A stretch of DNA of 64,000 nucleotides, taken from positions 1 through 64,000 of the IMG/VR virus record IMGVR_UViG_3300031616_000001; one strand, written 5' to 3'. Below, one piece after another: positions 3,163 through 46,811 of this stretch. This stretch comes from a virus. A program made the translations under genes and the position numbers. How positions within the stretch are numbered: position 1 is the first letter of the stretch; every line of letters starts with the position of its first letter. Below the pieces are notes generated by a model that was not told the origin of the DNA, made no database searches, and saw only the letters and a program-made list of their open reading frames with translations.

Positions 3163-4175
3163 GCTTCGCGCTCGGCTGGTACTACGGCAATCCGAGGCCG
3201 AAGTTCGAACCACCGGACGATCTCGGCAACTCCGCTAACTTTTCACCGTCGAACTCTGGGGCCCCCGGAGAGATCGACACGAGCCTCGCTGACTTCTATG
3301 CGGGCGTCGCCGACGTGACGACAGAGACGGTCGTGTGGAGTACGGAGTGGGTGCCTGTTGTTGCCGACCCAGCGCCGTTCATCAACTACCCGCTCGGAGA
3401 GAACGCAGGACCGATCCGCATTCACACGGGTCCCGATGACGACAACTACACCCTGTTCATCGGAACACTGAACTTGACGGCGACGGTGGACGGTGTTCCG
3501 CTGGATGGCCACTTGCGGATCGTGATGGCCGAGGGCGGCTCATACGGGAACTTCGCTTGGGACTTCGTCTCAGGAACCGGCGGCGGGTCGGGCAGCCCAT
3601 GCCTTCCGGAACTGCTGGCGCCAGCCGGAACTCCGGTGTTTCTGGAGAACGGGCATGCGCAGCAGCTGCGCTCGGTGTACCGCGATGTCGCGATGGGAAC
3701 CGGTCACATGCGGCGGATCCGGACGCGCACGATCGCGCCACGGACCGTGGCGGTTTCGTGGTTCGTCGATGCCAACAAGGTCCAGGCGATCGAAGCCTGG
3801 CACGAAGGCTCCTTGCGAGTTGGTGTCGAGCCATTCGCAGCGCGCATCGCGCGTATCGGCGGACGTGGTCTCACGTGGTGGCGGGCGACGTGGGTCGGGC
3901 CGCTGGTCTATACGCCGCTCAACTCCAAGCACTGGCGAGTCAACGGCGATCTCTTTCTGAGTTGCGGTGGCGGCCTCGAAGGTCCAGTGAGTACGAGCGC
4001 GCGAGTCGAGTTCGAAGTGGCGCTGCGCGCTACGGCGAGCGCGGTCATAACGGCATACGCGGCCGTCGAGTTCGTTGCCGAACTCAAGCAACAGTTCGTC
4101 GGCCCGACCTTGCGTGGGACGTCCTCCGGCGAACTCCGAACCACTACCAGCGGGGAGACCCGCATCACGCGGTGA
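3159..4175 (+). CDS. Minor tail protein with a distal-tail (gpM/Dit-like) domain
   Basis: Central segment MGTGHMRRIRTRT...VAVSW...WRVNGDL resembles distal tail proteins; position after TMP; C-terminal RxTxxGExRxT repeats. Confidence 0.6.
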   Translation: MSFALGWYYGNPRPKFEPPDDLGNSANFSPSNSGAPGEIDTSLADFYAGVADVTTETVVWSTEWVPVVADPAPFINYPLGENAGPIRIHTGPDDDNYTLFIGTLNLTATVDGVPLDGHLRIVMAEGGSYGNFAWDFVSGTGGGSGSPCLPELLAPAGTPVFLENGHAQQLRSVYRDVAMGTGHMRRIRTRTIAPRTVAVSWFVDANKVQAIEAWHEGSLRVGVEPFAARIARIGGRGLTWWRATWVGPLVYTPLNSKHWRVNGDLFLSCGGGLEGPVSTSARVEFEVALRATASAVITAYAAVEFVAELKQQFVGPTLRGTSSGELRTTTSGETRITR

Positions 4176-14711: not shown

Positions 14712-14786
14712 TGGCGGGCCCCGAGAGATTCGAACTCCCGTCGCACGGTTTTGGAGACCGGCATCGTTCCGCTAGACCAGAGGCCC
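14712..14786 (-). tRNA. tRNA-Trp(CCA)
   Basis: Cloverleaf; anticodon loop CTCCAAA; GTTCGAAT T-loop; encoded CCA end. Confidence 0.9.
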
Positions 14787-14794
14787 CAATGAAG

Positions 14795-14871
14795 TGGTAG
14801 CGAGCATTCGATTCGAACGAATGACCTACGGGTTATCTGCCCGGCGCTCTAACCGACTGAGCTAGCCCGCT
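14795..14871 (-). tRNA. tRNA-Ile(GAT) with non-canonical A33
   Basis: TAGCTCAGTCGGTTAGAGC D-arm; stem CCGGG/CCCGT with loop CAGATAA; TTCGAAT; CCA end. Confidence 0.8.
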
Positions 14872-14880
14872 GCGCTGTAC

Positions 14881-14956
14881 TGGCAAGGGCGGCACGATTC
14901 GAACGTGCGACACGCGGGATCAAAACCCGCTGCTCTACCAACTGAGCTACGCCCCA
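14881..14956 (-). tRNA. tRNA-Gln(TTG)
   Basis: Anticodon arm GCGGG-TTTTGAT-CCCGC; TTCGAAT; GCCA end; U1:U72 mismatch. Confidence 0.85.
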
Positions 14957-15066
14957 GAAGATTCACTGTCGCCAGGTGACGACGATCTGAATTCGGGCGG
15001 TCAGGTGGGAGCGGGTCATGATGCGCGCAATTATGCAGCAAGTTTGCAGCGAGGTAAGTGCACTGC

Positions 15067-15143
15067 TGGTGCGCCCGCAGGGATTCGAACCCCGAACCTA
15101 CCGCCTAGAAAACGGCTGCTCTGATCCGTTGAGCTACGGGCGC
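15067..15143 (-). tRNA. tRNA-Arg(TCT)
   Basis: GCGCCCG acceptor stem; arm GCCGT-TTTCTAG-GCGGT; GGTTCGAATCC; CCA end. Confidence 0.9.
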
Positions 15144-15148
15144 ATGTG

Positions 15149-15223
15149 TGGTGCCGCGTCGAGGAATCGGACCCCGGACCAACGAGTTACAAGGACGCTG
15201 CTCTACCACTGAGCTAACGCGGC
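15149..15223 (-). tRNA. tRNA-Thr(TGT), atypical or possibly degenerate
   Basis: Loop CTTGTAA, but the anticodon stem GCGTC/CTCGT has two mismatches and the T-loop reads GTCCGAT instead of GTTCGA. Confidence 0.65.
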
Positions 15224-15230
15224 GAGATGG

Positions 15231-15306
15231 TGGCTGGCAAGACAGGGCTCGAACCTGTGACCAATCCCTTAACAGGGGAACGCTCTACCGACTGAGCTAC
15301 ATGCCA
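15231..15306 (-). tRNA. tRNA-Asn(GTT)
   Basis: Arm TTCCC-CTGTTAA-GGGAT; GGTTCGAGCC; GCCA end. Confidence 0.9.
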
Positions 15307-28400: not shown

Positions 28401-28842
28401 GGCGCGCCTCGGTGTAGCCCGTGATCGCCATGTCCGGGCCGTGGCCGTCCTGGTAGATCGAATTGACGAGCGACTGCATCGTGTCCGCCTGCTCGAGGCG
28501 CTCCGGCGCGACCAGTTTGACGCGGGCGATCGCGATCTCCGTGGCGCGCGCCAGCGTCATCGAGATCCACATGCGCTGGCCGTGATGCGGCTTGTGGTCG
28601 GGCACACACCAGTCGGACCCGAAGGCATCGTGAAGTAGATCCGGCCGACCGCAGCTCGGGCAAGCCGTACCGAAGGGCGTCACGCCGTCGCGGCTGTTCC
28701 AGATCACCTCGCGGTGCGCGCAGGATCGGCACACGTAGAGCATTAGGGCGAATGCCTCGACGTGCTGGTAGCCGCGCAGTTCTGCTGCCTTGCGCGCCGG
28801 CATGCCGGGTTGCGAGGAATAGGCTGACAGAAAGCCACTCAC
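22407..28842 (-). other. Run of hypothetical early genes (22407-22664, 22661-23581, 23898-24206, 24315-24809, 24806-25114, 25111-25395, 25392-26891, 26888-27112, 27096-27779, 27776-28060, 28053-28400, 28393-28842)
   Basis: Consecutive, mostly overlapping minus-strand ORFs; no function recognised. Confidence 0.55.
23617..23901 (-). CDS. HTH (XRE-like) DNA-binding protein
   Basis: QKTAAEAWGVSSPFVSKVLHGRALPT. Confidence 0.6.
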   Translation of the reverse strand: MRAADLRTPRAFPGPKPESGEHEGMVPSLCETLLLHIRRKYALQKTAAEAWGVSSPFVSKVLHGRALPTKVMLDDAGIVLTKSSVVKVHWGMRA

Positions 28843-29864
28843 GATTGAACCTCCGGGTACTGGTCGTGCAGCACGCCGTCGAGATGACGACCGGCCTTTT
28901 TCTTTCCGACGTGGACGACAGTGGAGCCGTCAGAGAACTGGTGCATCGGACTCGTCGCGCTGCCCATGAACGCAGCGGCGTCATCGTCGAGCCAGTTGCC
29001 GTTCTGCTTGTGAAGGTGCGCGGTTCCGTGCTTTGCGCATTGATCGCGCAGGGATCTGAACCAGGCCGTCTTCGAAGGTCGAGCGCCGACACCACTCTCG
29101 CCACCCGTCACGACCCAGTCGATCTTCGGCACGTCGTACTGCCCGACCTTCGTCGAACGCTTGCCTTCGAGCGCGTTGTCGCAATAGGTCCAGTCGCTGT
29201 CGCGGTCGTCGGGTTGGTCTCGCGATGCCGATGTCGGGCTGCTCCGCATCAGCTCGTCAAGCCTGATCTCGCCGAGTAACGGCTCAGCGCTGACCCAGCG
29301 CACGGCGGCTGGCGTGTCCTGCAGATGCGGGACACGCTCCTCGGCCGTCGCCTGGTCCTCGGCGCTGACGCCCATCCACATGTTGGGCAGCGGCCACTGC
29401 GTGAGAGCCTCTATCGGATTGCCGCCGAGCGCGAGGATCTGTTTCTCGATCGGTCCGTAGTCGGCGGCGAAGCGCTTCATATAGTCGCGCATCCGCGCTG
29501 AGCGCTTCGTCAAGACCTGGAATGTGTGCTGCGGCGCCATGGCCATGACGGCAAAGACCTTGTCGATCCACTCGTCGGGTACGCCTTCATAGAACAGATC
29601 GCCGTGGGCGACGACAAAGATCAGCCTGCCGCGTTTCCACGTCAACGGCTGGCGCAACCACGGCTCGTTGAAGCGGACCTCGCCGTTCCAGACTGGCCCG
29701 GCAGCGCTCGGCTGAGTCAGACCGGCCCGCGACGGATGATGTTGAAGACGGGTGCCGGCCAACCTCATCGCATAGCAATTCGTGCAGCCCTTTGTCTTCA
29801 CCTTGCAGCCGGTGATGACGTTCCAAGTAGCATCGCTCCACTCGATCTGTGTCGAATCAGCCAT
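28839..29864 (-). CDS. Phage Gp37/Gp68 (DUF5131) radical-SAM-like protein
   Basis: TQIEWSDATWNVITGCKVKTKGCTNCYA (CX6CX2C); HTFQVLTKR; WVSAEPLLG; IDWVVTGGESG; HKQNG. Confidence 0.9.
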   Translation of the reverse strand: MADSTQIEWSDATWNVITGCKVKTKGCTNCYAMRLAGTRLQHHPSRAGLTQPSAAGPVWNGEVRFNEPWLRQPLTWKRGRLIFVVAHGDLFYEGVPDEWIDKVFAVMAMAPQHTFQVLTKRSARMRDYMKRFAADYGPIEKQILALGGNPIEALTQWPLPNMWMGVSAEDQATAEERVPHLQDTPAAVRWVSAEPLLGEIRLDELMRSSPTSASRDQPDDRDSDWTYCDNALEGKRSTKVGQYDVPKIDWVVTGGESGVGARPSKTAWFRSLRDQCAKHGTAHLHKQNGNWLDDDAAAFMGSATSPMHQFSDGSTVVHVGKKKAGRHLDGVLHDQYPEVQS

Positions 29865-37431: not shown

Positions 37432-39549
37432 TCAGGCGTCCACGTCGTCGAAGACACTGCGCGTGCCGTCGGCGTTCATGAGGGTGCCGTCCTCGGCATA
37501 GAACTGGCCACCCGTCAGCGGAACAGCGCGCAGCGCTGACTTGAGCGCGGCCATCTCATCGTGCGGCACGATCCATGGCCCCGGCTTGCCGGCTCGCGGC
37601 TTCAGGGCTGCCGACTTCATGACGGCGGCGACCGCGGCCAGCAAGGTTCCCGCCGTCTCCAGGTACTTCTTCATGTCGTAGAAGACCTCTGGCGGCGCAT
37701 CAGCAGCGTGCAGCTCGCCGGTCTGCCGCAGATAGCCGATGTACCCCTCATCTGAAGTGATCGAGATCGCCTGCAGCTGATAGTCGCCGAAGTACCTCTT
37801 GCTGGGGACCGATCCTGGCTCGCCGGCATAGCCAAGCGCTTGGAATCCAAGAGAGAAAACGAAGTCTGGCGTCGGTGGCAAAGCCGACGTGCGGATCTCG
37901 AGCCAGCCGACAGGCTTGTTCTGATCGAAGCCGATCAGGATGGGCACGCGCGTGGTGTCCTCGTTGAGTACGACGGGCAGCGTGCCGTCGCCGGGGCCGC
38001 CGGGCAGCGCGTCGGCGGCATCGGTCAGCGCGCCGTGAACCGTTTGGTCGCTGCCCGTCGCCATGTCGACACCGATGACAATCGTCTCACCCTGGTGCAA
38101 TACGTCAGCCATTTCGGCCGGCACGTATCCGCTCGGCGTATCGGCCAGCGCCAGCGCGGCCTTGACGTCGGCCACCTGCTCAACCAGCGGCGGCGCATCG
38201 CGGCTCGCGACCAGCTCGGCCAGGTAGCTGCGCAGGCTGACCAGCGTCGCGTCCTTCACGGCCTGCGCCGAGCCCACGAGGATCCCGAAGTTGGCGTCGT
38301 CGATTAGCCAGGCCTCGGTCTCTGCGATGATCTTCTCGACGTCGTCGACGTTGGCACCGGTGTAGTAGGGGATGCGGCCGACGTGGGCGATGACCAGCTG
38401 CTGGCGAATGCCGTCGATCTGCTGCATGGCCATTTGCGTGCGCTCGGCTGCCGCGGCTTGCTCGTCGCGAAGGCGCCGGGTTTCGGCGTCGGCGGTCTTC
38501 TGGTCGGTCTCGCGCTGCAGGACGACCCTGTGGAAGTCGTGGAGCTCATGCAGCGCCTTGTCGCGCGCCTTGACAGCCACGGCCGCGAACTCGCCGAGCT
38601 CATCGCCGACGGCAACGTGTTCGATCAACGTGACCAGCTCCAGCAGGCCGGCGGCCGACGACGTGAAGGCTCGGCGCTGGATGCGGTCGATCTCGGCCAC
38701 CAGTTCGCTTGCGGCGTCGCTGCGCGCGCGGCGATCGTCGGCGGCCCGCTGCTCGGCTGCGCGCTGCGCGTCGGCGACCCGACGCTGCTCGACGTCGGCG
38801 GCCTCGCGCTGCCGGCGCTCCTCGGCCTCGCGGGTGATGCGCTCGGCGTTCTCGCGCTCGAGTTGCGCGAGGCGCAGGCGGTTCGCTTCGGCCTCGGCTT
38901 CACGCTGCTCGGAAGACTTTGCAATGCTAAGTAAATCGGCCAACTTCAGGAGCGTCTCGGCCTTTGCGTTGACGGCGTGCGGCTCGAACTCTTCGAAGTC
39001 CGCGCCGACGACGATGCGCGCAACCATGTCGATGCGCTCCTGGATCTGCGCCGACGTCATGCCTACCGCGCGCACGGCGACGTTGGTGATGTCGGCGATG
39101 CGATCGCGGTGGCCGGCCTGGCGTTCGGCCTCGGCGGCGTCGCGCTCTGCCTTCTCACGCACCCTGCGCTGCTCGTCTGCGGTGATCTGCTGGTCGGCCG
39201 AGTTGTAGATCTCCTCGGTGATGCCGACGAATCGTTCGGCCTCGCTCTCCAGCCTGATGATCTTCTCGGCGACGCTGGCCTTCAATTCACGCTTTTTGTC
39301 GGCACAGCGCTTCTCGATGGTCGTCATCGTGCGCTTGAGCATCTGCCGATCCTTGCGGGCGCGGTCGTTGCCTTTGATCGTCGTCAAGTCGTAGGCGATG
39401 CCCTTGAGCTTGAGCATCTCGTTCAGGCCGTGGATGAGGTCCTTGTATTCCTCGAGCTCTGTCGAGACAAGTGCGACCTCGGTGCCCGGCGTTTTGTCGT
39501 CGACGACATCAGGGCCTGCCGTGCCCGCGGATTCTTCATTTTCGCTCAT
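37432..39549 (-). CDS. Long coiled-coil phage protein (DUF1351-like N-terminus)
   Basis: YDLTTIKG...ARKDR..L motif; E/R/A-rich coiled coil; near the recombination genes. Confidence 0.6.
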   Translation of the reverse strand: MSENEESAGTAGPDVVDDKTPGTEVALVSTELEEYKDLIHGLNEMLKLKGIAYDLTTIKGNDRARKDRQMLKRTMTTIEKRCADKKRELKASVAEKIIRLESEAERFVGITEEIYNSADQQITADEQRRVREKAERDAAEAERQAGHRDRIADITNVAVRAVGMTSAQIQERIDMVARIVVGADFEEFEPHAVNAKAETLLKLADLLSIAKSSEQREAEAEANRLRLAQLERENAERITREAEERRQREAADVEQRRVADAQRAAEQRAADDRRARSDAASELVAEIDRIQRRAFTSSAAGLLELVTLIEHVAVGDELGEFAAVAVKARDKALHELHDFHRVVLQRETDQKTADAETRRLRDEQAAAAERTQMAMQQIDGIRQQLVIAHVGRIPYYTGANVDDVEKIIAETEAWLIDDANFGILVGSAQAVKDATLVSLRSYLAELVASRDAPPLVEQVADVKAALALADTPSGYVPAEMADVLHQGETIVIGVDMATGSDQTVHGALTDAADALPGGPGDGTLPVVLNEDTTRVPILIGFDQNKPVGWLEIRTSALPPTPDFVFSLGFQALGYAGEPGSVPSKRYFGDYQLQAISITSDEGYIGYLRQTGELHAADAPPEVFYDMKKYLETAGTLLAAVAAVMKSAALKPRAGKPGPWIVPHDEMAALKSALRAVPLTGGQFYAEDGTLMNADGTRSVFDDVDA

Positions 39550-39565
39550 GGTCACTCCGTTTGAA

Positions 39566-39802
39566 TCAAAGGTCTTGGTCGCGAGCGACGCGCATGCTCT
39601 GCCGATCGCGAGCCACGTCAGCCGCGCAATCCCTGTAGAGCAACTCGCTGCACGGCTTCGGATTCATGTTCTCGTAGCACCAGCACAGGTACTGCGGGTC
39701 CTTCTCGCCGATCTGTGATGGTGTGAGGCCGGGATACTTCCGGCTGCGCGCCATCGGCGCGTGGTCGAGGTCTTCGGCGACTGTCATTTCTAGTTCCATC
39801 AA
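39566..39802 (-). CDS. Small protein with an ExoX-C/DUF3820-like motif
   Basis: KYPG.....I...DPQYL.W. Confidence 0.5.
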   Translation of the reverse strand: MMELEMTVAEDLDHAPMARSRKYPGLTPSQIGEKDPQYLCWCYENMNPKPCSELLYRDCAADVARDRQSMRVARDQDL

Positions 39803-40284
39803 GAGGTAGGGATCTCGCGCTGCAGGCTGACCTGCTGCTTTGGCTTTGGCGGCTCGATCTCTTTCATCATGGCGGAAGCCTGTGAGAGAACGGCTGCACC
39901 AAGACGCATGACGTGCAACTGCTTGCTCTGCTCAATTTGCGTGAGCGTCTCGGCACGTACCATCGTCACACGCCGGATGCTCTTGCCTTGCTTGCGCGTG
40001 CCCTGCTTGAATCCCTTGATGTTCGTGTCCAGTCGCTCGACGCCAGTGAGCGCGCGAAAGCCGATCGTCGGAATTGCCGCGATCTCGATGTTGTGGCTGT
40101 TCAACATCTCTTTTCGCCAGGCGAGCGTGACGCACCGATAGCGGTTCGACTTCGGACTGAGCCCGATCACCGCCTCGATCTGCTCGTGCGTGAAGTCGGT
40201 GCCTTCTGCGATCTCTGGGAACGCAGTGCGCAGCTTCTTGACATCAGGGGCTGTTGGAACGCCCCCAAGAAACAACTTGCTCAT
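39799..40284 (-). CDS. Basic, possibly winged-helix protein; candidate accessory gene of the Cas7-like locus
   Basis: AAGGA RBS directly after repeat unit 4; FTHEQIEAVIG...GFRAL. Confidence 0.6.
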   Translation of the reverse strand: MSKLFLGGVPTAPDVKKLRTAFPEIAEGTDFTHEQIEAVIGLSPKSNRYRCVTLAWRKEMLNSHNIEIAAIPTIGFRALTGVERLDTNIKGFKQGTRKQGKSIRRVTMVRAETLTQIEQSKQLHVMRLGAAVLSQASAMMKEIEPPKPKQQVSLQREIPTS

Positions 40285-40300
40285 CTCGATTCCTTTCAAC

Positions 40301-40371
40301 TATGCGCGTAGCGCCCGTGCCCCGGCTTGCTCTGCAACGCCCGGCCACGCCTTGCCAGACCACAACAAGAC
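40301..40371 (-). repeat. (GGY-NN)n pentamer unit 4 plus terminal hairpin
   Basis: GTCTT GTTGT GGTCT GGCAA GGCGT GGCCG GGCGT TGCAG AGCAA GCCGG GGCAC GGGCG, then hairpin GCGC-TAC-GCGC. Confidence 0.85.
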
Positions 40372-40375
40372 GGGA

Positions 40376-41038
40376 TTAGATCTCTTGAACCTCTGCGGTG
40401 AACATCCCGAACGAGCCCGGCGTCGTGCTGCCAGGTCGCCAATCGCAGAGCCCCTTATATTCGCCGGAGAAGCTCACGATCTCCTGGAGAACTCGCTTAG
40501 TGATCTGCTTGTCCCAGACGCTGATCGTTCCGGTCGCTGACCATCGATCGAAGCGGGGACGAACGCGAATGTGTTTGCTCTTGCCGATCTTGGCGCGCTT
40601 CACGAACAGGCTGAAGCCCATCGCAGCACATGCCACCTTGTGCTCGGCGAAATCTTGGACCTTCATCAGGTCTGCAATCGGCGCCCATAGCAGCGGCTGA
40701 CCGTCGATCAGAAGCGGCCAGTGCATGTCATCGACACGCATGCCACTCTGGGTCTGAGCTTTGAAAGTCTTGTTGCCGCGTCCGCCTGGCACGGGGACCA
40801 TGGCGCCGCCTTCCATCAGGCACCGCATCAGGTTGTCGACCGGAACAGTCACGAACTGTTCATCCTGGTAGCAGCTGCCGAGCCAACGCCACGCCGGTGT
40901 TCTGTCATCGCCAGCCTTGCTCGACTTTTGATTGGCGGCATCATCCTTCCATGCCGACATCCTGTCCGCCCAGTCGATATCATCAGAGTGCATCAGTAGC
41001 GGCGTCTTGCCTGTGATGGTCACTGAGAATTTCTTCAT
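40376..41038 (-). CDS. Solitary Cas7/RAMP-like RNA-binding protein
   Basis: RAMP hallmarks: N-terminal strand FSVTITGKTPLLMH, VPVDNLMRCL (equivalent to iPgsslKG), HIRVRPRF..W, and C-terminal Gly-rich loop GEYKGLCDWRPGSTTPGSFGMF; AGGAGG RBS. Confidence 0.7.
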   Translation of the reverse strand: MKKFSVTITGKTPLLMHSDDIDWADRMSAWKDDAANQKSSKAGDDRTPAWRWLGSCYQDEQFVTVPVDNLMRCLMEGGAMVPVPGGRGNKTFKAQTQSGMRVDDMHWPLLIDGQPLLWAPIADLMKVQDFAEHKVACAAMGFSLFVKRAKIGKSKHIRVRPRFDRWSATGTISVWDKQITKRVLQEIVSFSGEYKGLCDWRPGSTTPGSFGMFTAEVQEI

Positions 41039-41060
41039 CGCTTCCTCCTAGAGTTGATCA

Positions 41061-41380
41061 ATGCGCATTGCGCCCTTGCCACACCACACCTTGCCCGGCC
41101 GTGCCCAGCCCGGGCGAGCCATGCCAAGCCTTGGCTGGAGTGGTGCATTCGCACCGGCAACCATCGCACGCGACGGAAGCCGCTGTGAACAGCCCTTGCC
41201 AAGCCTGACCGCGCCGCGCCCCGCCGTGCCGAGGCTTGCCATGCCATGTCAGGCCACGCCGCGCTAGTGCAACCGCACCGGGATAACGGCAGAACCGCCA
41301 ACCCGCTGCGTTCGCAGCCCCTGCCAGGCCGAGCCGTGCCTTGCACTGCCACGGCGTGCCATGCCGCGCCACACCGAGTG
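41061..41380 (-). repeat. Array of three (GGY-NN)n pentamer units separated by hairpins; candidate guide ncRNAs
   Basis: Phased 5-nt repeats at 41316-41375, 41191-41265 and 41071-41135, each ending GGCA(A/G)GGGC followed by a hairpin. Confidence 0.9.
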
Positions 41381-41396
41381 GCATCATGGAAGTAGT

Positions 41397-41945
41397 TCAA
41401 TGCGGGCTCCTGTGACGCGGCTTGGCCATATACCGAGCGCCTTCGCGCTCGCTCGGCTCGAACTCGAATGTCACGCCGTACTGCACGATCGCGTCGTCGA
41501 TGATCTGATCGGTCCAGATCGCGTACTTCTTCGGGCCCAGCGATTCGCTCGAGACATAGACCTTGTGCGGCGTGCGCTTCTTCGCCACGCGCCGCACGCC
41601 GGTCTTCTTGTCGACCACCTCGCCGCGGCGCATTTCCCAATGGAAGAGAAAGCGTTCGTTGTAGACGAGCTTCCACTGGTCGACGGGCCAGAGTTCAGTT
41701 TTTCCGGTCAGCTGACCCTTGCTGTCGAAGAGCGGAATGCGCACCTGATCGCTGATCTGCTTCAGCACGGCGCCGTGCAGAAACTTGCGCTGCTTGATCG
41801 TGATCGGATCCAGCGCCGGGCCCACCCGCAGCTCTACCTGTTCGCCGTTGTCGAGGAGGCATCGCGCATGAGTCATCGCAGCAATGAACTTCTCACGCGC
41901 TCCGGCTTCGGTCGCGATCACCACGAGGTAGATCTCGTCGTTCAT
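41397..41945 (-). CDS. NinB-like recombination protein
   Basis: TIKQRKFLHG.VL..IS.QV...WK......FL...SSESL...Y..W.DQI...A...GV.F. Confidence 0.6.
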   Translation of the reverse strand: MNDEIYLVVIATEAGAREKFIAAMTHARCLLDNGEQVELRVGPALDPITIKQRKFLHGAVLKQISDQVRIPLFDSKGQLTGKTELWPVDQWKLVYNERFLFHWEMRRGEVVDKKTGVRRVAKKRTPHKVYVSSESLGPKKYAIWTDQIIDDAIVQYGVTFEFEPSEREGARYMAKPRHRSPH

Positions 41946-42235
41946 TCGGCCAGCCTCCGCAGCACGTCGGCCAGCAGATCGAACTCACTGCCGACACCCA
42001 AGGCAAGCATGAGCGGTGGCTTTGCCAGATGCACGGACGCGCGCGTCCCGTTGTGATGCATCTCGCACAGCGGAATGGTGAGGAAGTCGTCGCGCGCAAT
42101 CCGGCCCTCGCGGATGTGGTGTACCTGTGCCCCCGCGTGGCCGTAGCCGAGGCGATGGCAAACGATGCATCCGATTTCAGCGACGCGACCCATGTGGCGC
42201 GAGGCTGCGGCGGTGGCGGCGATCTTGCGGCGCAT
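41942..42235 (-). CDS. Ref/DUF968-like HNH-type nuclease
   Basis: HMGRVAEIGCIVC...QVHHIR...TIPLCEMHH. Confidence 0.75.
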   Translation of the reverse strand: MRRKIAATAAASRHMGRVAEIGCIVCHRLGYGHAGAQVHHIREGRIARDDFLTIPLCEMHHNGTRASVHLAKPPLMLALGVGSEFDLLADVLRRLAE

Positions 42236-42236
42236 C

Positions 42237-43136
42237 TCAGGCCTCTACGCCGAACTTCTTCGCCGCGGCGATGCGCAGTGCGGCGCGATCGTCTTCAGGC
42301 ATGTGAGCGATGCCATCGAGCAGCAGGTCGACCTCGGCCTGGTTGCGGGCCGTCGTGATGCGCTTGAAGAGGCGTTCGAACTCCGTGGGCTTCACGGCGG
42401 ACGGCGCGAACGCTGCGCGAACCGTAAGCGGCGCCGGCAGCGTGCGCCTTGCGATCTTCTGCAGCTTGGCGGGCATGTCTTCGACGGCCGCGAAGGGCGC
42501 GCGCAGGATGCGCTCGTACTCGTCGACCATGGCCTTGAACTCCATGAGATCGCTCTCGAGCTTTTCGATGAAGTCGTCGTCGCGGTAGATCCGCTTGCGC
42601 CAGAGTTGCTTGCCGGCTGGCGCCAGGGCAGGGCAGTACAGGCAGAAGTCCATCCACTGCCGACGGCTGATCCACAGGCCGCCCTGCACTTGATCGATGA
42701 CCATTGACGTGTCGCCGGTCGTCCAGATCTTGCGAAGCTTCAGCGGTGCCAGGAAGCACTTGTACTCAGCAGATCCATCGTCTTCGATGACACCGTCGAG
42801 GCTGCCGCCGAAGACCTCGTCGTCGGTCATGATGAAGCCGACGCGCTGCACGAACAGACCGATGTCGATCTCGTGCTCGTGCCGCGCGTCAGGCTCGAGC
42901 TCATGCCCGCGAGTCATGTACCACGTCTCGTAGTTCTCATCGAGCGGCTCGCCGCTGATGCGCTCGATGGCAATGCGGAACGCTTCGTCCTTGGCATCGC
43001 TGCTGTACTCACCGGCTTCATCACCACGCTTCAGCCGGGCGGACTCGCGCATCAGATGGAAGTTGGAGCACGTCAGCTTGCCGACGCGCGCCTGCTTCCA
43101 TGGCTTGCTGCCCTGCTCGCAGAGAACTTCTTTCAC
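42237..43136 (-). CDS. YqaJ/lambda-exonuclease family recombination nuclease
   Basis: QGSKPW..AR.G.LT.S, G..LEP.AR, GSLDG, EYKC, QVQGGLW motifs. Confidence 0.9.
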   Translation of the reverse strand: MKEVLCEQGSKPWKQARVGKLTCSNFHLMRESARLKRGDEAGEYSSDAKDEAFRIAIERISGEPLDENYETWYMTRGHELEPDARHEHEIDIGLFVQRVGFIMTDDEVFGGSLDGVIEDDGSAEYKCFLAPLKLRKIWTTGDTSMVIDQVQGGLWISRRQWMDFCLYCPALAPAGKQLWRKRIYRDDDFIEKLESDLMEFKAMVDEYERILRAPFAAVEDMPAKLQKIARRTLPAPLTVRAAFAPSAVKPTEFERLFKRITTARNQAEVDLLLDGIAHMPEDDRAALRIAAAKKFGVEA

Positions 43137-44296
43137 TTGGCCGCGCCCTTGCCTTCAGCCGCCTTGATGTCGCGCACGAAGTCGTCGTCGACTTCGCCTG
43201 TGCCGGGATCGGCGGCCTGCGCAGCCGTCTGAGGCGGCGGTGCATCGGCGGTGGTAGCGGCGGCCGGCGCAGGTGCGGACGCCGGAGCGTTGTCGACGGT
43301 GCGCTCGCGGTCGACGGCGACGGCCTTGTCCTTCAGGCGCTGGTGCTCACCGGCGAGCAGCCGGCGATTCTCTTGGCCGGTGCCGGCGAAGAACTTCTGA
43401 TAGGCGGCGACGCCCTTGTCAGCAGCGGTCTCGGCTGCCTTCAGGAGCGCATCGGGAATCTTCGGTCCGACGTCGTCGACCGGGCCCATGTCGCGCGGCG
43501 CGTTCATCTCCTGCAGGTCGTCGACCGTGTGCACGCCGAGCATGCACTGCGGCGCGTACATGCGCTGCCAGAGCTTCTGCGCGAGATAGAAGATCTGCTG
43601 CTGCGGGTTGGTCGTCCACAGCGTCGAGTTGCGCGTCAGCGCCTGCGCCATCAGCACCTCGAGGTACCGCGGCTCCTTCTCACCGGTGAGCGTCGTCCAC
43701 ACCTTGATGCCGAGGCCGACCTCGTCGGCGGGCTTCCAACCGGGCACCTTGTACTTCGCCGGATGGCCGTGATCGTCCTGCTTCTTCTTGCTCTCGCGCT
43801 CTTCGAAGCGGCCGTTGATCTTCGTCCAGTCGCCGAAGTATTCGATGTGCAGCGCCTCCTTGATGGCGCCCATGTTCTTCATCACGGCGCCGATGACCTG
43901 CGACTCGTAGCCGAGCTTGCCATTGATCATGTGCGTCTTCTCCGCGAGGCCGTAGAAGTCCAGGCCCCATCGGTCGGCGCGCATGGCGATCGCCGTGCAG
44001 TCGGCGGCGTTGCCCTTCAGGTGTGCCGGCAGCGTGGCATTGCCCTTCGACACGAACGAGCCGAAGTCCATGTAGGCCTTCATGGCGGCGGCGTTCGTGA
44101 TCTGCGAGAGGCCGAGGCTGGAGTTCTCGGTCATCGCGACGAGCGCCTGCTCGACGCGGGCCATCAGCCGCACGCCATCCGCGGTTGTCGCCAGCTCCGT
44201 CGACGAGCGCAGGTCGCGCAGCAGTTCGGGGATGCCGCCGGCGCTCGGCGCGATGGTCGCGGTGCTGATCTCGGTGCTCGTGTCTTGCGTCGTCAT
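43133..44296 (-). CDS. recT: RecT-family single-strand annealing protein
   Basis: LPAHLKG..ADC.AI.M.A.RW.LD....A.KTH.INGKLGYE.Q...RNSTLW...P.QQ..YLA...W.R.YAP..MLGV. Confidence 0.85.
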   Translation of the reverse strand: MTTQDTSTEISTATIAPSAGGIPELLRDLRSSTELATTADGVRLMARVEQALVAMTENSSLGLSQITNAAAMKAYMDFGSFVSKGNATLPAHLKGNAADCTAIAMRADRWGLDFYGLAEKTHMINGKLGYESQVIGAVMKNMGAIKEALHIEYFGDWTKINGRFEERESKKKQDDHGHPAKYKVPGWKPADEVGLGIKVWTTLTGEKEPRYLEVLMAQALTRNSTLWTTNPQQQIFYLAQKLWQRMYAPQCMLGVHTVDDLQEMNAPRDMGPVDDVGPKIPDALLKAAETAADKGVAAYQKFFAGTGQENRRLLAGEHQRLKDKAVAVDRERTVDNAPASAPAPAAATTADAPPPQTAAQAADPGTGEVDDDFVRDIKAAEGKGAAK

Positions 44297-44327
44297 GTCG
44301 GTCTTTCTTCGGCGTTCGCCGTGGTGG

Positions 44328-46811
44328 TCAGATCTTCTCGAGGAGGGCGAGCTCGACGCGCAGCTCGGCCGCGCGCTTCTCGTGGTGCTTGATGCGCTGC
44401 GGCAGACCATCGAATTCGGCCTTGAGGTGCGCGGTGTCGGACTCGGCGCTGGCGATCAGCTTGCGCACGTAGATGGCCTTGAACCAGGCGACGGTCTTCG
44501 CGGCGCCGAGACGGATCAGGTCGCCGGCGACGAGGTGCGGCGCCGAGCGCGTTGGGGTCAAGACGGCGCTCATTGCGATCTCCCTGTTGCTTCGAGAAGC
44601 ACCGCGCGCATCTCCGTTTCCATCGCCAGGTCATCGCGGCGGTCGCCGCCGAGCGACTTGAAGTCGGGCTGATGCAGGCGCACCAGCGCGGCGACGGCGG
44701 CCCAGTGACAGGAGAAGGCGCCGATCACCTGCGGCTGCCGCATGTTGTTCGCGAGGATCACGCGCTTGCCCGACACGTAGGGCTGCGCTTCGCTGACGCC
44801 GCCGGGCTTCACGCGGTTTGCCTCGCCGTTCTGATGCGCGCGTCGCGGTTGGCGCAGATCACCATGTCGGACGCTTGACCGATCGTGGCGTCGATGGCCT
44901 GGCGGCGGCGCTCGGCATTGGCCTGAGCGGTCTTCAGGCCTTCGGCGCTTCGCGCGCCTGCCAGGTCGGCCTGACGCAGGCGTGATTCCTCGGCGCCCCA
45001 GGCCAGCATCGCGTCGGCGTCCATGTCGCGGTACATCACAGCCGAGACTCGTCCGCGGTGATGCAACGCGCGTCTGGGTCGTGTTGCGTGAAGAGTCCGC
45101 CGTCGACCACGATGACCGCTGCCGACGTCGGCGACTGAGGCGCGAAGGCCGCGCGGGCCGCACGCCTCAAGGCTTCGCAATGCTGATCCTGCGCGCTGGA
45201 ATCGGGGTCGCAGCACCCGCGCCCGTTGGGCATGGGCGTCGAAGAGCGGATGGCGTCGTCGGCGACGAACTGGATGAGGTTGTCCAGCGCGTCCTCGAAG
45301 GCTTCCTCGTGCGGGTTGACTGCCGGCGCCGGCGCGACGGGCAGACCACGTATATCGGCAGGTGTGTGCTGTGCTGTCATGACGTGGTCCCGGTTGCTTT
45401 GGCGATTGCGGCGCGAGCGGCCATCAAGCGCAAACGATCCTCATGGCGCTCCTGCTGCGTGGTGGGCGCACCAGCGCGGCAGTAGGCTTCGTCTAAACCC
45501 TGCAGCGCAGCCAGCAAATCAGGCGCGCCGGCTGCATCAAGTGCGGATTGCGCATCAGCGAGGTGCTCTTGCCCGTAGACCTTCCACGCGTCGTCGAAGT
45601 CAACGTTGCACTCATCTGCGGCTCGCTTGCACAAGGCTCGCGCTGCGGCGACAACCATCGGCGTGTGCTGCGCGTTCATGCGGCGCGCCCGGTAGCCGCG
45701 ACGATGTCAGCAGCCGTGAGCCGCCGGCATTGCCCGATGTGTCGCGGCGGACCCATGGAGTCGCCGTGGCCAGCCCAGCCCCAATACATGCAGGCGTTCG
45801 GGTTGATCTCGGCGATCTGCCGGCGCAGCGCGTTGACTTGCGCGACGCGCCCCAACTCGCTGCGAAGATTCGGCCACTCGGTGATGGCGTTGATCTTGCG
45901 CCAGGTCTCGGCAAACGAGCCGCCGCGGCAGACCGCGAGCAGTTCGCGCTGCAGGTCGTCAACGGTGCGCGGCACCGGCGGTTGCTCCGCGCTCACAGCC
46001 CGAACCCCAGCTTCCAGCAGGCTGACGCCGCCGCGGCGACGCCGATCGCGGCGATCCACATCCACGGGAACCAGGTCGGATCAGGCTCGGCCACGCGCGC
46101 CGGCGCCGGCCGCGATGCCGTGGCGCCGATGTGATGCACGACGGCCGTGTGGAACTCGACGAGCGGCGGCAGCGGCGTGCCGGGCACGGCCGGCCGCAAG
46201 ACGAGGCGTGCGCCGGCCTTCACGACAGATCTCCGCGCTTGACGAAGAGCACGAGCGCCGCGGCCGCCGCGATGCCACCGTTCCAGGCGCTGCCCACGGA
46301 CAGCGCCGCGACGAGGTTGCCGGCGCCGAGCGCGCCGAGCCAGATCCGGTAGGTCATGACTGCTCCTCGAAGTCGAGAGGGATGTCGCAGACGTCCTGTG
46401 TTTCCGCAGCTGGCGGCTCGCGCAGCACCAGCGCCAGCTCGGCGCGCACGCGGTCCTTTGCCACGGACTTGCGGAAGCTCTGGCTCACCGCGATGAGCCG
46501 CACCTGCGCGCCGGGATACAGAAAGGTGGGGGCGACGGTCACGACGCCGCCGGCTTGTTGCCTGCCGCCGGCGCAACGACATGCACCTGGTAGTCCGTGG
46601 GGGCGATGGAATTCCAGACGGCGAAGTCAGGATCCAGACGCTGCTGGGCTTCGCGCAGCGCCGCGCGTTCGGCGCGTCCCGCGCGGACGACGCGCATGTC
46701 TTCGCTGTAGTCGAAGGCCCAGTCGTGCGCCGTGAGTGCGGCGACGTAGGCCGCCTGCTGTTCATCGCTGACGGCCTGCCCGACGGGTACGCCCGGTGTG
46801 GTGTCTGTCAT
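44328..46811 (-). other. First pL-operon genes: about ten small hypothetical ORFs
   Basis: Mostly overlapping minus-strand ORFs 44328-44573, 44570-44812, 44809-45036, 45036-45380, 45377-45679, 45676-45996, 45993-46223, 46220-46357, 46354-46542, 46539-46811. Confidence 0.55.

What the first reader, a model, noticed from the sequence alone, without database searches (positions are those of the whole stretch)
41061..41380. Modular architecture of the upstream array: ~120-125 nt units of pentamer tract, conserved GGCARGGGC end and hairpins
Minus strand. Unit 1: GGTGT GGCGC GGCAT GGCAC GCCGT GGCAG TGCAA GGCAC GGCTC GGCCT GGCAG GGGCT. Unit 2: AGCGC GGCGT GGCCT GACAT GGCAT GGCAA GCCTC GGCAC GGCGG GGCGC GGCGC GGTCA GGCTT GGCAA GGGCT. 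Unit 3: GCCAA GGCTT GGCAT GGCTC GCCCG GGCTG GGCAC GGCCG GGCAA GGTGT GGTGT GGCAA GGGCG. Each tract ends in a small hairpin (GCTGCG-AA-CGCAGC, GCTGT-TC-ACAGC, GCGCA-A-TGCGC). Both inter-unit linkers then carry a larger hairpin and a GGTGC-N4-GCAC(T/C) hairpin. Each unit has an internal GCC variant 7-8 pentamers before its end. Conserved structure with different sequence argues for selection on RNA fold and processing into separate guides rather than microsatellite slippage, which would homogenise the NN positions.
Basis: partly seen in the sequence, partly recalled or inferred. Interest (0 to 1): 0.88.

Follow-up and report, generated by a model that had tools for sequence, protein, structure and literature searches.

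The report
Phage VIPR guide-RNA array
The five-letter repeat tracts are the guide-RNA genes of a VIPR system, a CRISPR-like RNA-guided DNA-silencing system of phages first described in 2026, so the feature is real but of an already known kind.

Summary
Three GGY-NN pentamer tracts (11, 14 and 12 repeats) lie on the minus strand at 41375-41076, and a fourth at 40371-40317. They are the only such runs in the 118-kb phage genome.

They flank a 220-aa gene homologous over its full length to the experimentally studied Vipr protein of Escherichia phage SUSP1. The gene has a Cas7/RAMP-like predicted fold and keeps the published GGY-contact residues.

Of 85 related loci, 80 carry such tracts on the vipr strand: 302 tracts against 3 on the other strand. 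The NN positions are near-random. 180 of 187 tract ends carry a covarying hairpin.

This matches VIPR systems as described in three 2026 bioRxiv preprints.

Not confirmed: the "GCC 7-8 pentamers before the end" rule. No convincing target was found and no RNA data exist.

This clade's tails are hairpins. I did not test for a SUSP1-type pseudoknot.

The scan has already noted VIPR-like loci on other DNA: 417 notes in at least 338 genomes.

Verdict: a new member of a known kind.

The parts
41321..41375 (-). vrRNA1 repeat tract: 11 GGY-NN pentamers
   Evidence: Read; run detected.
41266..41320 (-). vrRNA1 long tail: GG, then hairpin H1 (41318-41305), H2 (41304-41280) and H3 (41279-41266)
   Evidence: H1 and H2 covary in 28 tails. 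An H3-like hairpin is present in 21 of 28 tails.
41196..41265 (-). vrRNA2 repeat tract: 14 pentamers, the first degenerate
41142..41195 (-). vrRNA2 long tail: H1 (41193-41182), H2 (41181-41156), H3 (41155-41142)
41076..41135 (-). vrRNA3 repeat tract: 12 pentamers, the first degenerate
41062..41075 (-). vrRNA3 short tail: GG, a 4-bp hairpin (41073-41063), then A. The hairpin ends 24 nt before the vipr ATG, and the AGGAGG ribosome-binding site lies at 41049-41044.
   Evidence: The same arrangement, with the hairpin 12-47 nt before the vipr start, occurs in 51 of 82 related loci.
40376..41038 (-). vipr: a 220-aa Cas7/RAMP-like protein, a homologue of SUSP1 Vipr
40317..40371 (-). vrRNA4 repeat tract: 11 pentamers, the first two degenerate. 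It starts 4 nt after the vipr stop codon.
   Evidence: The GGCAC-GGGC end was found.
40303..40316 (-). vrRNA4 short tail: GG, a 4-bp hairpin (40314-40304), then A. It lies just upstream of the next gene's start.
   Evidence: It is one row of alignment A2.
39799..40284 (-). vap-like accessory gene: 161 aa from the ATG at 40284, possibly winged-helix
   Evidence: A homologue sits beside vipr in 74 of 85 related loci, while three other neighbours have none. Model pLDDT is 82. Only weak winged-helix matches were found, E >= 0.055.

Best explanation
The locus at 39799-41375 (minus strand) is a VIPR (Viral Interference Programmable Repeat) system of an uncultivated 118-kb phage. It holds four vrRNA genes, a vipr gene and a vap-like gene.

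By homology with the SUSP1 system, one Vipr protomer should bind each GGY-NN repeat and hold the GGY bases. [quoted passage not shown] Each repeat tract ends in GGCAR-GGG plus a covarying hairpin. I read that hairpin as the 3' handle or cap of the RNA.

- Units followed by another unit carry a roughly 55-nt tail of three hairpins.
- Units that abut a gene's ribosome-binding site carry only the first hairpin.

Shown here: the anatomy, the homology, conservation of the RNA-contact residues, the association across relatives, tail covariation and guide turnover.

Inferred: transcription, processing, filament formation and silencing at this locus. The targets are unknown.
For: **Protein**
- tblastn of the 220-aa protein hit 122 phage records, among them phiSUSP1 at 28495-29061 (E 1e-11, 99% coverage).
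- That gene is YP_009199429.1. It has one GGY tract upstream and, after the next gene, two tracts detected by my scan in the 530-nt gap. This fits the published layout of one upstream and three downstream.
- Pairwise BLASTP gave E 3e-19 at 27% identity.
- The AlphaFold model has pLDDT 86.
- All listed Foldseek PDB rows are CRISPR effector chains, best E 7.7e-5.
- The first 14 VIA-align rows are CRISPR-Cas chains, top Z 8.6 with rmsd 2.9 over 144 residues.
- SUSP1 residues H17, R138, D177, W178 and R179, which hold GGY, align with H17, R160, D199, W200 and R201 here. All five are invariant in 55 homologues.

**RNA**
- 80 of 85 related loci have tracts on the vipr strand, 302 tracts against 3 on the other strand.
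- 180 of 187 tract ends carry a hairpin, against a mean of 62 and a maximum of 79 in 200 shuffles.
- 11 of 15 pairs in the long tail show compensatory change.
- Guides are replaced in near-identical loci.
- No self-target was found, as the preprint also reports for its systems.
- A homologue of the accessory gene lies in 74 of 85 related loci.
Against: - There is no RNA evidence for this locus.
- No sigma-70-type promoter or intrinsic terminator was found on the minus strand in 39500-42300, so the transcript start is unknown.
- No convincing target was found. Exact core patterns gave one hit each for vrRNA1 and vrRNA4 in viral contigs. Both hits lie on contigs of 42-45% GC and both flanking NN fail.
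- vrRNA2 gave none in viral contigs, metagenomes or 401 genomes of one order.
- vrRNA3 gave three metagenome hits at 10 of 12 NN. About one is expected by chance, by my own estimate.
- The accessory protein has no sequence similarity to SUSP1 gp038 or to the LESphi2 neighbour.
- The tails are hairpins, whereas SUSP1 has a pseudoknot.
- The 85 loci are not independent. L007 and L077 are the same region, and L010-L021 are near-identical.
Confidence: 0.9

Rival explanations
1. The pentamer tracts act as DNA. They would be iteron-like binding sites for a replication, partition or regulatory protein of the phage, not RNA genes.
For: The 5-bp period equals half a helical turn. TRF also reports period 10. 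The tracts lie next to recombination genes.
Against: The tracts are strand-specific relative to vipr, 302 against 3. The flanking hairpins keep pairing through compensatory changes, which points to selection on RNA. The neighbouring protein has an RNA-binding RAMP fold with conserved GGY-contact residues. The SUSP1 units are transcribed and bound as RNA.
Confidence: 0.03
2. The units are VIPR-type RNAs, but those that abut ribosome-binding sites (units 3 and 4) serve mainly in cis. They would set or autoregulate translation of vipr and the accessory gene, or act as decoys, rather than guide the complex to foreign DNA.
For: The short-tail hairpin ends 24 nt before the vipr ATG here and 12-47 nt before it in 51 of 82 related loci. 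The gene-proximal guide is identical in 12 loci while the other slots vary. Decoy-type solo vrRNAs are reported (abstract).
Against: These units have the same repeat number and the same end as the others. Nothing links Vipr binding to translation. No self-match was found in the phage genome.
Confidence: 0.05
3. The tracts are slippage-prone microsatellite, or translated repeat sequence, without a function of their own.
For: Minus-strand open frames of 109 and 213 aa run through the tracts.
Against: The NN positions are not homogenised, with entropy near 2 bits. A 5-nt period cannot keep a reading frame. Related loci differ by whole guides of 10-14 repeats. The tracts are unique in the genome and always sit next to vipr.
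Confidence: 0.01

Closest known systems
VIPR system of Escherichia phage SUSP1 (type II; Vipr YP_009199429.1, vap1, four vrRNAs). Sources: bioRxiv 10.64898/2026.04.26.720920, 10.64898/2026.04.26.720927 and 10.64898/2026.10.15.759431.
   Same: - Homologous Vipr over its full length, with conserved GGY-contact residues.
- GGY-NN tracts within the published range of 9-16 repeats.
- Structured 3' tails.
- A two-gene module in a phage.
- Guides both upstream and downstream of vipr.
- No self-target.
   Different: - Only 27% protein identity.
- GGC-rich rather than GGT-rich repeats.
- Tails are one or three hairpins that start at the third G of GGG, where SUSP1 has a roughly 40-nt pseudoknot tail.
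- One guide lies between vipr and the accessory gene.
- The accessory protein is unrelated in sequence to SUSP1 gp038.
- The targets are unknown.
Vipr-homologue locus of Pseudomonas phage vB_Pae_LESphi2 (OQ594955.1, gene P21_9)
   Same: Three GGC-NN tracts lie upstream of the homologue. Two end in GGCAA-GGGCT followed by a hairpin and further hairpins, the same end and layout as units 1 and 2 here.
   Different: Protein identity is 27.9%. The residue aligned with W200 is Y. Whether this locus belongs to the published P. fulva clade was not checked.
Class 1 CRISPR-Cas Cas7 backbone filaments (Csm3, Cmr4, type VII Cas7)
   Same: The predicted fold is the best structural match. As published for Vipr, one protomer binds each RNA period and the thumb flips bases.
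   Different: There are no CRISPR repeats or spacers. The period is 5 nt with a gapped guide. I saw no cas-like gene among the eight neighbouring proteins scanned.

Membership tests
VIPR system | Vipr protein homologous to the characterised SUSP1 Vipr | tested here: met
   tblastn E 1e-11 at 99% coverage. The hit gene is YP_009199429.1, the accession named as Vipr in the third preprint. Pairwise E 3e-19.
VIPR system | RAMP fold (RRM core, G-loop, thumb) | tested here: met
   Model pLDDT 86. All listed Foldseek rows are CRISPR RAMP-bearing complexes. VIA-align rows 1-14 are CRISPR chains, Z 8.6-6.6. The G-loop and thumb were not inspected as such, only through aligned residues.
VIPR system | Residues that hold GGY (SUSP1 H17, R138, D177, W178, R179) | tested here: met
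   They align with H17, R160, D199, W200 and R201, all invariant in 55 homologues.
VIPR system | vrRNA genes of 9-16 GGY-NN repeats beside vipr on the same strand | tested here: met
   Tracts of 11, 14, 12 and 11 repeats.
VIPR system | Conserved GGY with hypervariable NN among relatives | tested here: met
   NN entropy of 1.94 and 2.0 bits in 239 unique arrays. Guides are swapped in near-identical loci. GGY conservation is partly forced by the detector.
VIPR system | Structurally conserved 3' tail after the last repeat | tested here: met
   Hairpin at 180 of 187 tract ends. Covariation. The shape differs from the SUSP1 pseudoknot. A pseudoknot was not tested.
VIPR system | Adjacent accessory (vap) gene | tested here: inconclusive
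   A conserved neighbour is present in 74 of 85 loci. There is no similarity to SUSP1 gp038. Winged-helix matches are weak, E >= 0.055. The vap1-6 families are defined in supplements I could not read.
VIPR system | vrRNAs expressed and bound by Vipr | not testable with these tools
   No RNA run is available to test this.
VIPR system | Natural targets that obey the 1-nt skip rule at 80% NN match or better | tested here: inconclusive
   Only chance-level hits at 9 of 11 and 10 of 12 NN. The searches needed exact cores, so targets with internal mismatches were out of reach.
VIPR type II (SUSP1 / P. fulva) | Position in the Vipr tree, vap1, and array layout as defined by the authors | not testable with these tools
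   The type definitions are in figures and data files that were not available. I only know that SUSP1 is type II.
CRISPR-Cas | Array of direct repeats of about 23-50 nt separated by unique spacers | tested here: not met
   TRF reports only periods 5 and 10 in 40300-41400.

The most novel reading that the evidence does not exclude
In this GC-rich environmental clade, the minimal element 'GG, a short covarying hairpin, then A' replaces the SUSP1 pseudoknot as the vrRNA 3' handle and marks the processing site. The whole array would then be cut out of the phage's polycistronic early transcript, because no promoter or terminator was found. Short-tailed guides placed 12-47 nt before the vipr and accessory-gene start codons would couple guide loading or cleavage to translation of those genes. 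That would be a built-in dosage control not reported for SUSP1.
Probability: 0.15. Interest if true: 0.5.

Novelty: new member of a known kind. Interest (0 to 1): 0.35.

Why it matters
The finding places a 2026-described RNA-guided system in a 118-kb GC-rich phage that probably comes from a root metagenome.

It also defines a large environmental clade of 1828 protein homologues at E <= 1e-5. In that clade the guide tails are simple covarying hairpins and the array layout is regular. This gives a compact, testable variant for studying how vrRNAs are processed and capped.

It does not change what is known about the mechanism. The biological targets of these four guides remain open.

Tried and rejected
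**Searches that gave nothing**
- Rfam found only six tRNAs at gathering score. In 40200-41500 it found only weak matches, E 0.96 or worse.
- blastn of 40300-41400 against the phage collection: no match.
- Pfam, NCBIfam and PADLOC: no family for the 220-aa or the 161-aa protein. PHROGs gave phrog_4652, function unknown, for the 220-aa protein only.
- The search for related loci with the single protein found no relative. The alignment-based scans did.

**Target search under the 1-nt skip rule**
- Own genome: best 15-18 of 22-28 bases.
- Viral contigs, exact cores of 9-10 NN: vrRNA1 gave 1 hit and vrRNA4 gave 1 hit. Both are 9 of 11 NN, on contigs of 45% and 42% GC, and both flanking NN fail. vrRNA2 and vrRNA3 gave 0.
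- vrRNA2, all 14 NN with up to 3 mismatches: 0 of 3 genomes and 0 of 401 genomes of the order of G001.
- Metagenomes: vrRNA2 core 0. vrRNA3 core gave 3 hits, each 10 of 12 NN.
  - Two hits are the same site in homologous ABC-transporter permease genes, with the skipped base at the wobble position.
  - The third lies in a low-GC, eukaryote-like ORF in another frame.
  - I rejected these as evidence. By my own rough estimate about one chance hit is expected, and the two homologous hits are not independent.

**Other checks**
- Host inference by tblastn of the RecT protein was uninformative.
- No RNA holder is listed for the stretch. Of the two runs listed, one holds it whole: a DNA run that may be the source sample.
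- Alignment A2 (118 tract ends) came out ungapped, with the 3' arms out of register. It was not used for counts.
- For A3 I hand-picked 28 long tails: 24 of the 52 tails listed that begin GGGCT, window:41137-41195, one more tail from L009 and two from LESphi2. The rest were left out.
- ARAGORN and Rfam found nothing in the LittleE tails.
- The supplements of all three preprints were not read (type lists, locus tables, target tables). They may already hold this clade, its tails or its type.

Full report
**What is there**

On the minus strand the window holds three tracts of GGY-NN pentamers: 41375-41321 (11 repeats), 41265-41196 (14) and 41135-41076 (12). Each tract is followed by GGG and a small hairpin. 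A fourth tract at 40371-40317 has 11 repeats, the first two degenerate, and lies 4 nt after the stop of the 220-aa ORF 40376-41038.

A scan for runs of at least five GGC-like pentamers found only these three runs. That held in the window and in the whole 118,179-base genome, and all three are on the minus strand. Thirty shuffles of the window gave a mean of 0.8 runs and none longer than 6. Rfam has no family for the region.

**What it is**

A literature search returned the bioRxiv preprint 10.64898/2026.04.26.720920. Of this paper I read:
- the abstract and outline;
- the Results in full;
- Methods parts 1-2 of 4;
- further passages found by term search.

It describes VIPR systems, which have three parts:
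- a RAMP-like Vipr protein;
- an accessory vap gene;
- vrRNAs of 9-16 YNNGG repeats with a conserved 3' tail.

Such systems are mostly in phages and prophages. They bind double-stranded DNA through the NN dinucleotides with one skipped base, and they silence competing elements.

Two companion preprints exist.
- 10.64898/2026.04.26.720927: I saw the abstract, section 5 and further passages. It reports a filament with one protomer per repeat and names the residues that hold GGY.
- 10.64898/2026.10.15.759431: I saw the abstract and passages. It reports satellite competition and solo vrRNAs.

**The protein**

- tblastn of the 220-aa protein hit 122 phage records. They include phiSUSP1 at 28495-29061, E 1e-11 at 99% coverage.
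- That gene is YP_009199429.1. It has one GGY tract upstream and, after the next gene, two tracts detected by my scan in a 530-nt gap. This fits the published layout of one upstream and three downstream.
- Pairwise BLASTP gives E 3e-19 at 27% identity over the full length.
- An AlphaFold model built from 55 homologues has pLDDT 86 and pTM 0.82.
- Foldseek against the PDB lists only CRISPR effector chains (Csm3, type VII Cas7, Cas7-11). The best E is 7.7e-5 with TM about 0.4-0.5.
- The Foldseek-independent search puts CRISPR chains in rows 1-14, top Z 8.6 with rmsd 2.9 over 144 aligned residues. At these Z values this supports a shared fold, no more.
- The SUSP1 residues reported to hold GGY are H17, R138, D177, W178 and R179. 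They align with H17, R160, D199, W200 and R201 here, and all five are invariant in the 55-sequence alignment.

**Relatives**

The protein has 1828 homologues at E <= 1e-5. I fetched 71 viral and 14 genomic related loci.

- 80 of the 85 have GGY-NN runs of at least 6 units on the vipr strand, 302 runs in all. Only 3 short runs lie on the other strand.
- The five without runs are L055, L070, L074, L080 and L086. Three of them have little flank or only a fragment of the gene.
- The loci are not independent. L007 and L077 are one region, and L010-L021 are near-identical. Arrays were therefore counted as unique sequences.
- In 239 unique arrays the NN positions have entropies of 1.94 and 2.0 bits. 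Conservation of GGY is partly forced by my detector.
- In 12 loci whose vipr genes are 95-100% identical, the gene-proximal guide is the same. The middle slot holds at least six different guides of 10-14 repeats. This is the behaviour expected of exchangeable guides.

**Tails**

- The commonest tract end in relatives is GGCAA-GGGC, in 56 of 239 arrays.
- Of 187 unique tract ends, 180 have a hairpin of at least 4 bp starting at the GGG, 159 of them at the third G. In 200 shuffles the mean was 62 and the maximum 79.
- There are 46 different 5' stem arms. The base after the hairpin is A in 123 cases and G in 52.
- For the long tails of units 1 and 2, RNAalifold on 28 hand-picked tails predicts H1 (5 bp) and H2 (10 bp). 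Eleven of the 15 pairs show compensatory changes.
- On that alignment 94.6% of cells pair, against 71.2% in shuffles (0 of 500 as high). The covariation score is 0.578 against 0.175 (0 of 500). Slid controls give 34-60% paired. The structure was derived from the same alignment, which favours it.
- The third hairpin, GGTGC-N4-GCAC in the window, is present in 21 of 28 tails. Shuffles gave a mean of 5.4 and a maximum of 11.
- Units 3 and 4 have only the first hairpin. In unit 3 it ends 24 nt before the vipr ATG. In 51 of 82 eligible related loci a tract-end hairpin lies 12-47 nt before the vipr start.

**Accessory gene and context**

- The next gene encodes 161 aa from the ATG at 40284. It has a homologue beside vipr in 74 of 85 related loci. 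The three other neighbours tested have none.
- Its model has pLDDT 82. It gives only weak Foldseek matches, all to winged-helix regulators, with E 0.055 or worse.
- It shows no similarity to SUSP1 gp038 or to the LESphi2 neighbour.
- Upstream lie RecT, a YqaJ-type exonuclease and a Ref-like nuclease.
- No sigma-70-type promoter or intrinsic terminator was found on the minus strand of 39500-42300. The array may therefore be part of the operon transcript. That is inference.

**Targets and expression**

- No self-match exists under the 1-nt skip rule.
- Exact-core scans of viral contigs, metagenomes and 401+3 genomes gave only chance-level hits. These searches could not see targets with internal mismatches.
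- No RNA data are available for the stretch.

**Verdict**

This is a real and well-supported VIPR locus, a new member of a kind described in 2026. Its tails are hairpins, in contrast to the SUSP1 pseudoknot. The same scan has noted VIPR-like loci in at least 338 other genomes.

I could not see the preprints' supplements. I therefore cannot say whether this clade, its type or its tail form is already listed there.

Noticed in passing
L003 (Mycobacterium phage LittleE, NC_042322.1) 2170-2440 and 3656-4010: A Vipr homologue (gp34) is flanked by five GGC-NN tracts. After a small hairpin, their tails contain a T-arm-like box (GGTTCGAGTCC type) enclosed by an acceptor-like stem, a tRNA-like minihelix that could recruit host RNase P or Z for processing. 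ARAGORN and Rfam do not call it. The held text of the first preprint has no occurrence of 'tRNA' or 'Mycobacteri'.
   Followed up: partly
window 41142-41320; L006, L009, L010 and L013 tails: RNAfold often prefers a long-range helix between the H1 and H3 regions, enclosing H2, over three separate hairpins. The H1 and H3 loops look complementary in some tails. An alternative fold or pseudoknot is therefore possible.
   Followed up: no
L091 9232-9260 and L092 3210-3238: The 10-NN core of vrRNA3 matches exactly one site in two homologous ABC-transporter permease genes of GC-rich metagenome contigs, with the skipped base at the wobble position. It fits chance expectation but could be rechecked with a mismatch-tolerant search.
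   Followed up: partly
L055 and L070: These two related loci have vipr and accessory-gene homologues and full flanks, but no GGY-NN run on the vipr strand by my criteria. They may use another repeat consensus.
   Followed up: no
L010-L021: Twelve near-identical loci keep the gene-proximal guide but differ in the middle and distal guides, including a pair of overlapping tracts in different registers. This resembles the 'staggered arrays' named in the preprint.
   Followed up: partly
window 14715-15306: Six tRNA genes lie in a row on the minus strand.
   Followed up: no
window 41942-44410: A recombination module lies just upstream of the VIPR locus: RecT (43133-44410), a YqaJ-type exonuclease (42237-43136) and a Ref-like RecA-dependent nuclease (41942-42235).
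   Followed up: no
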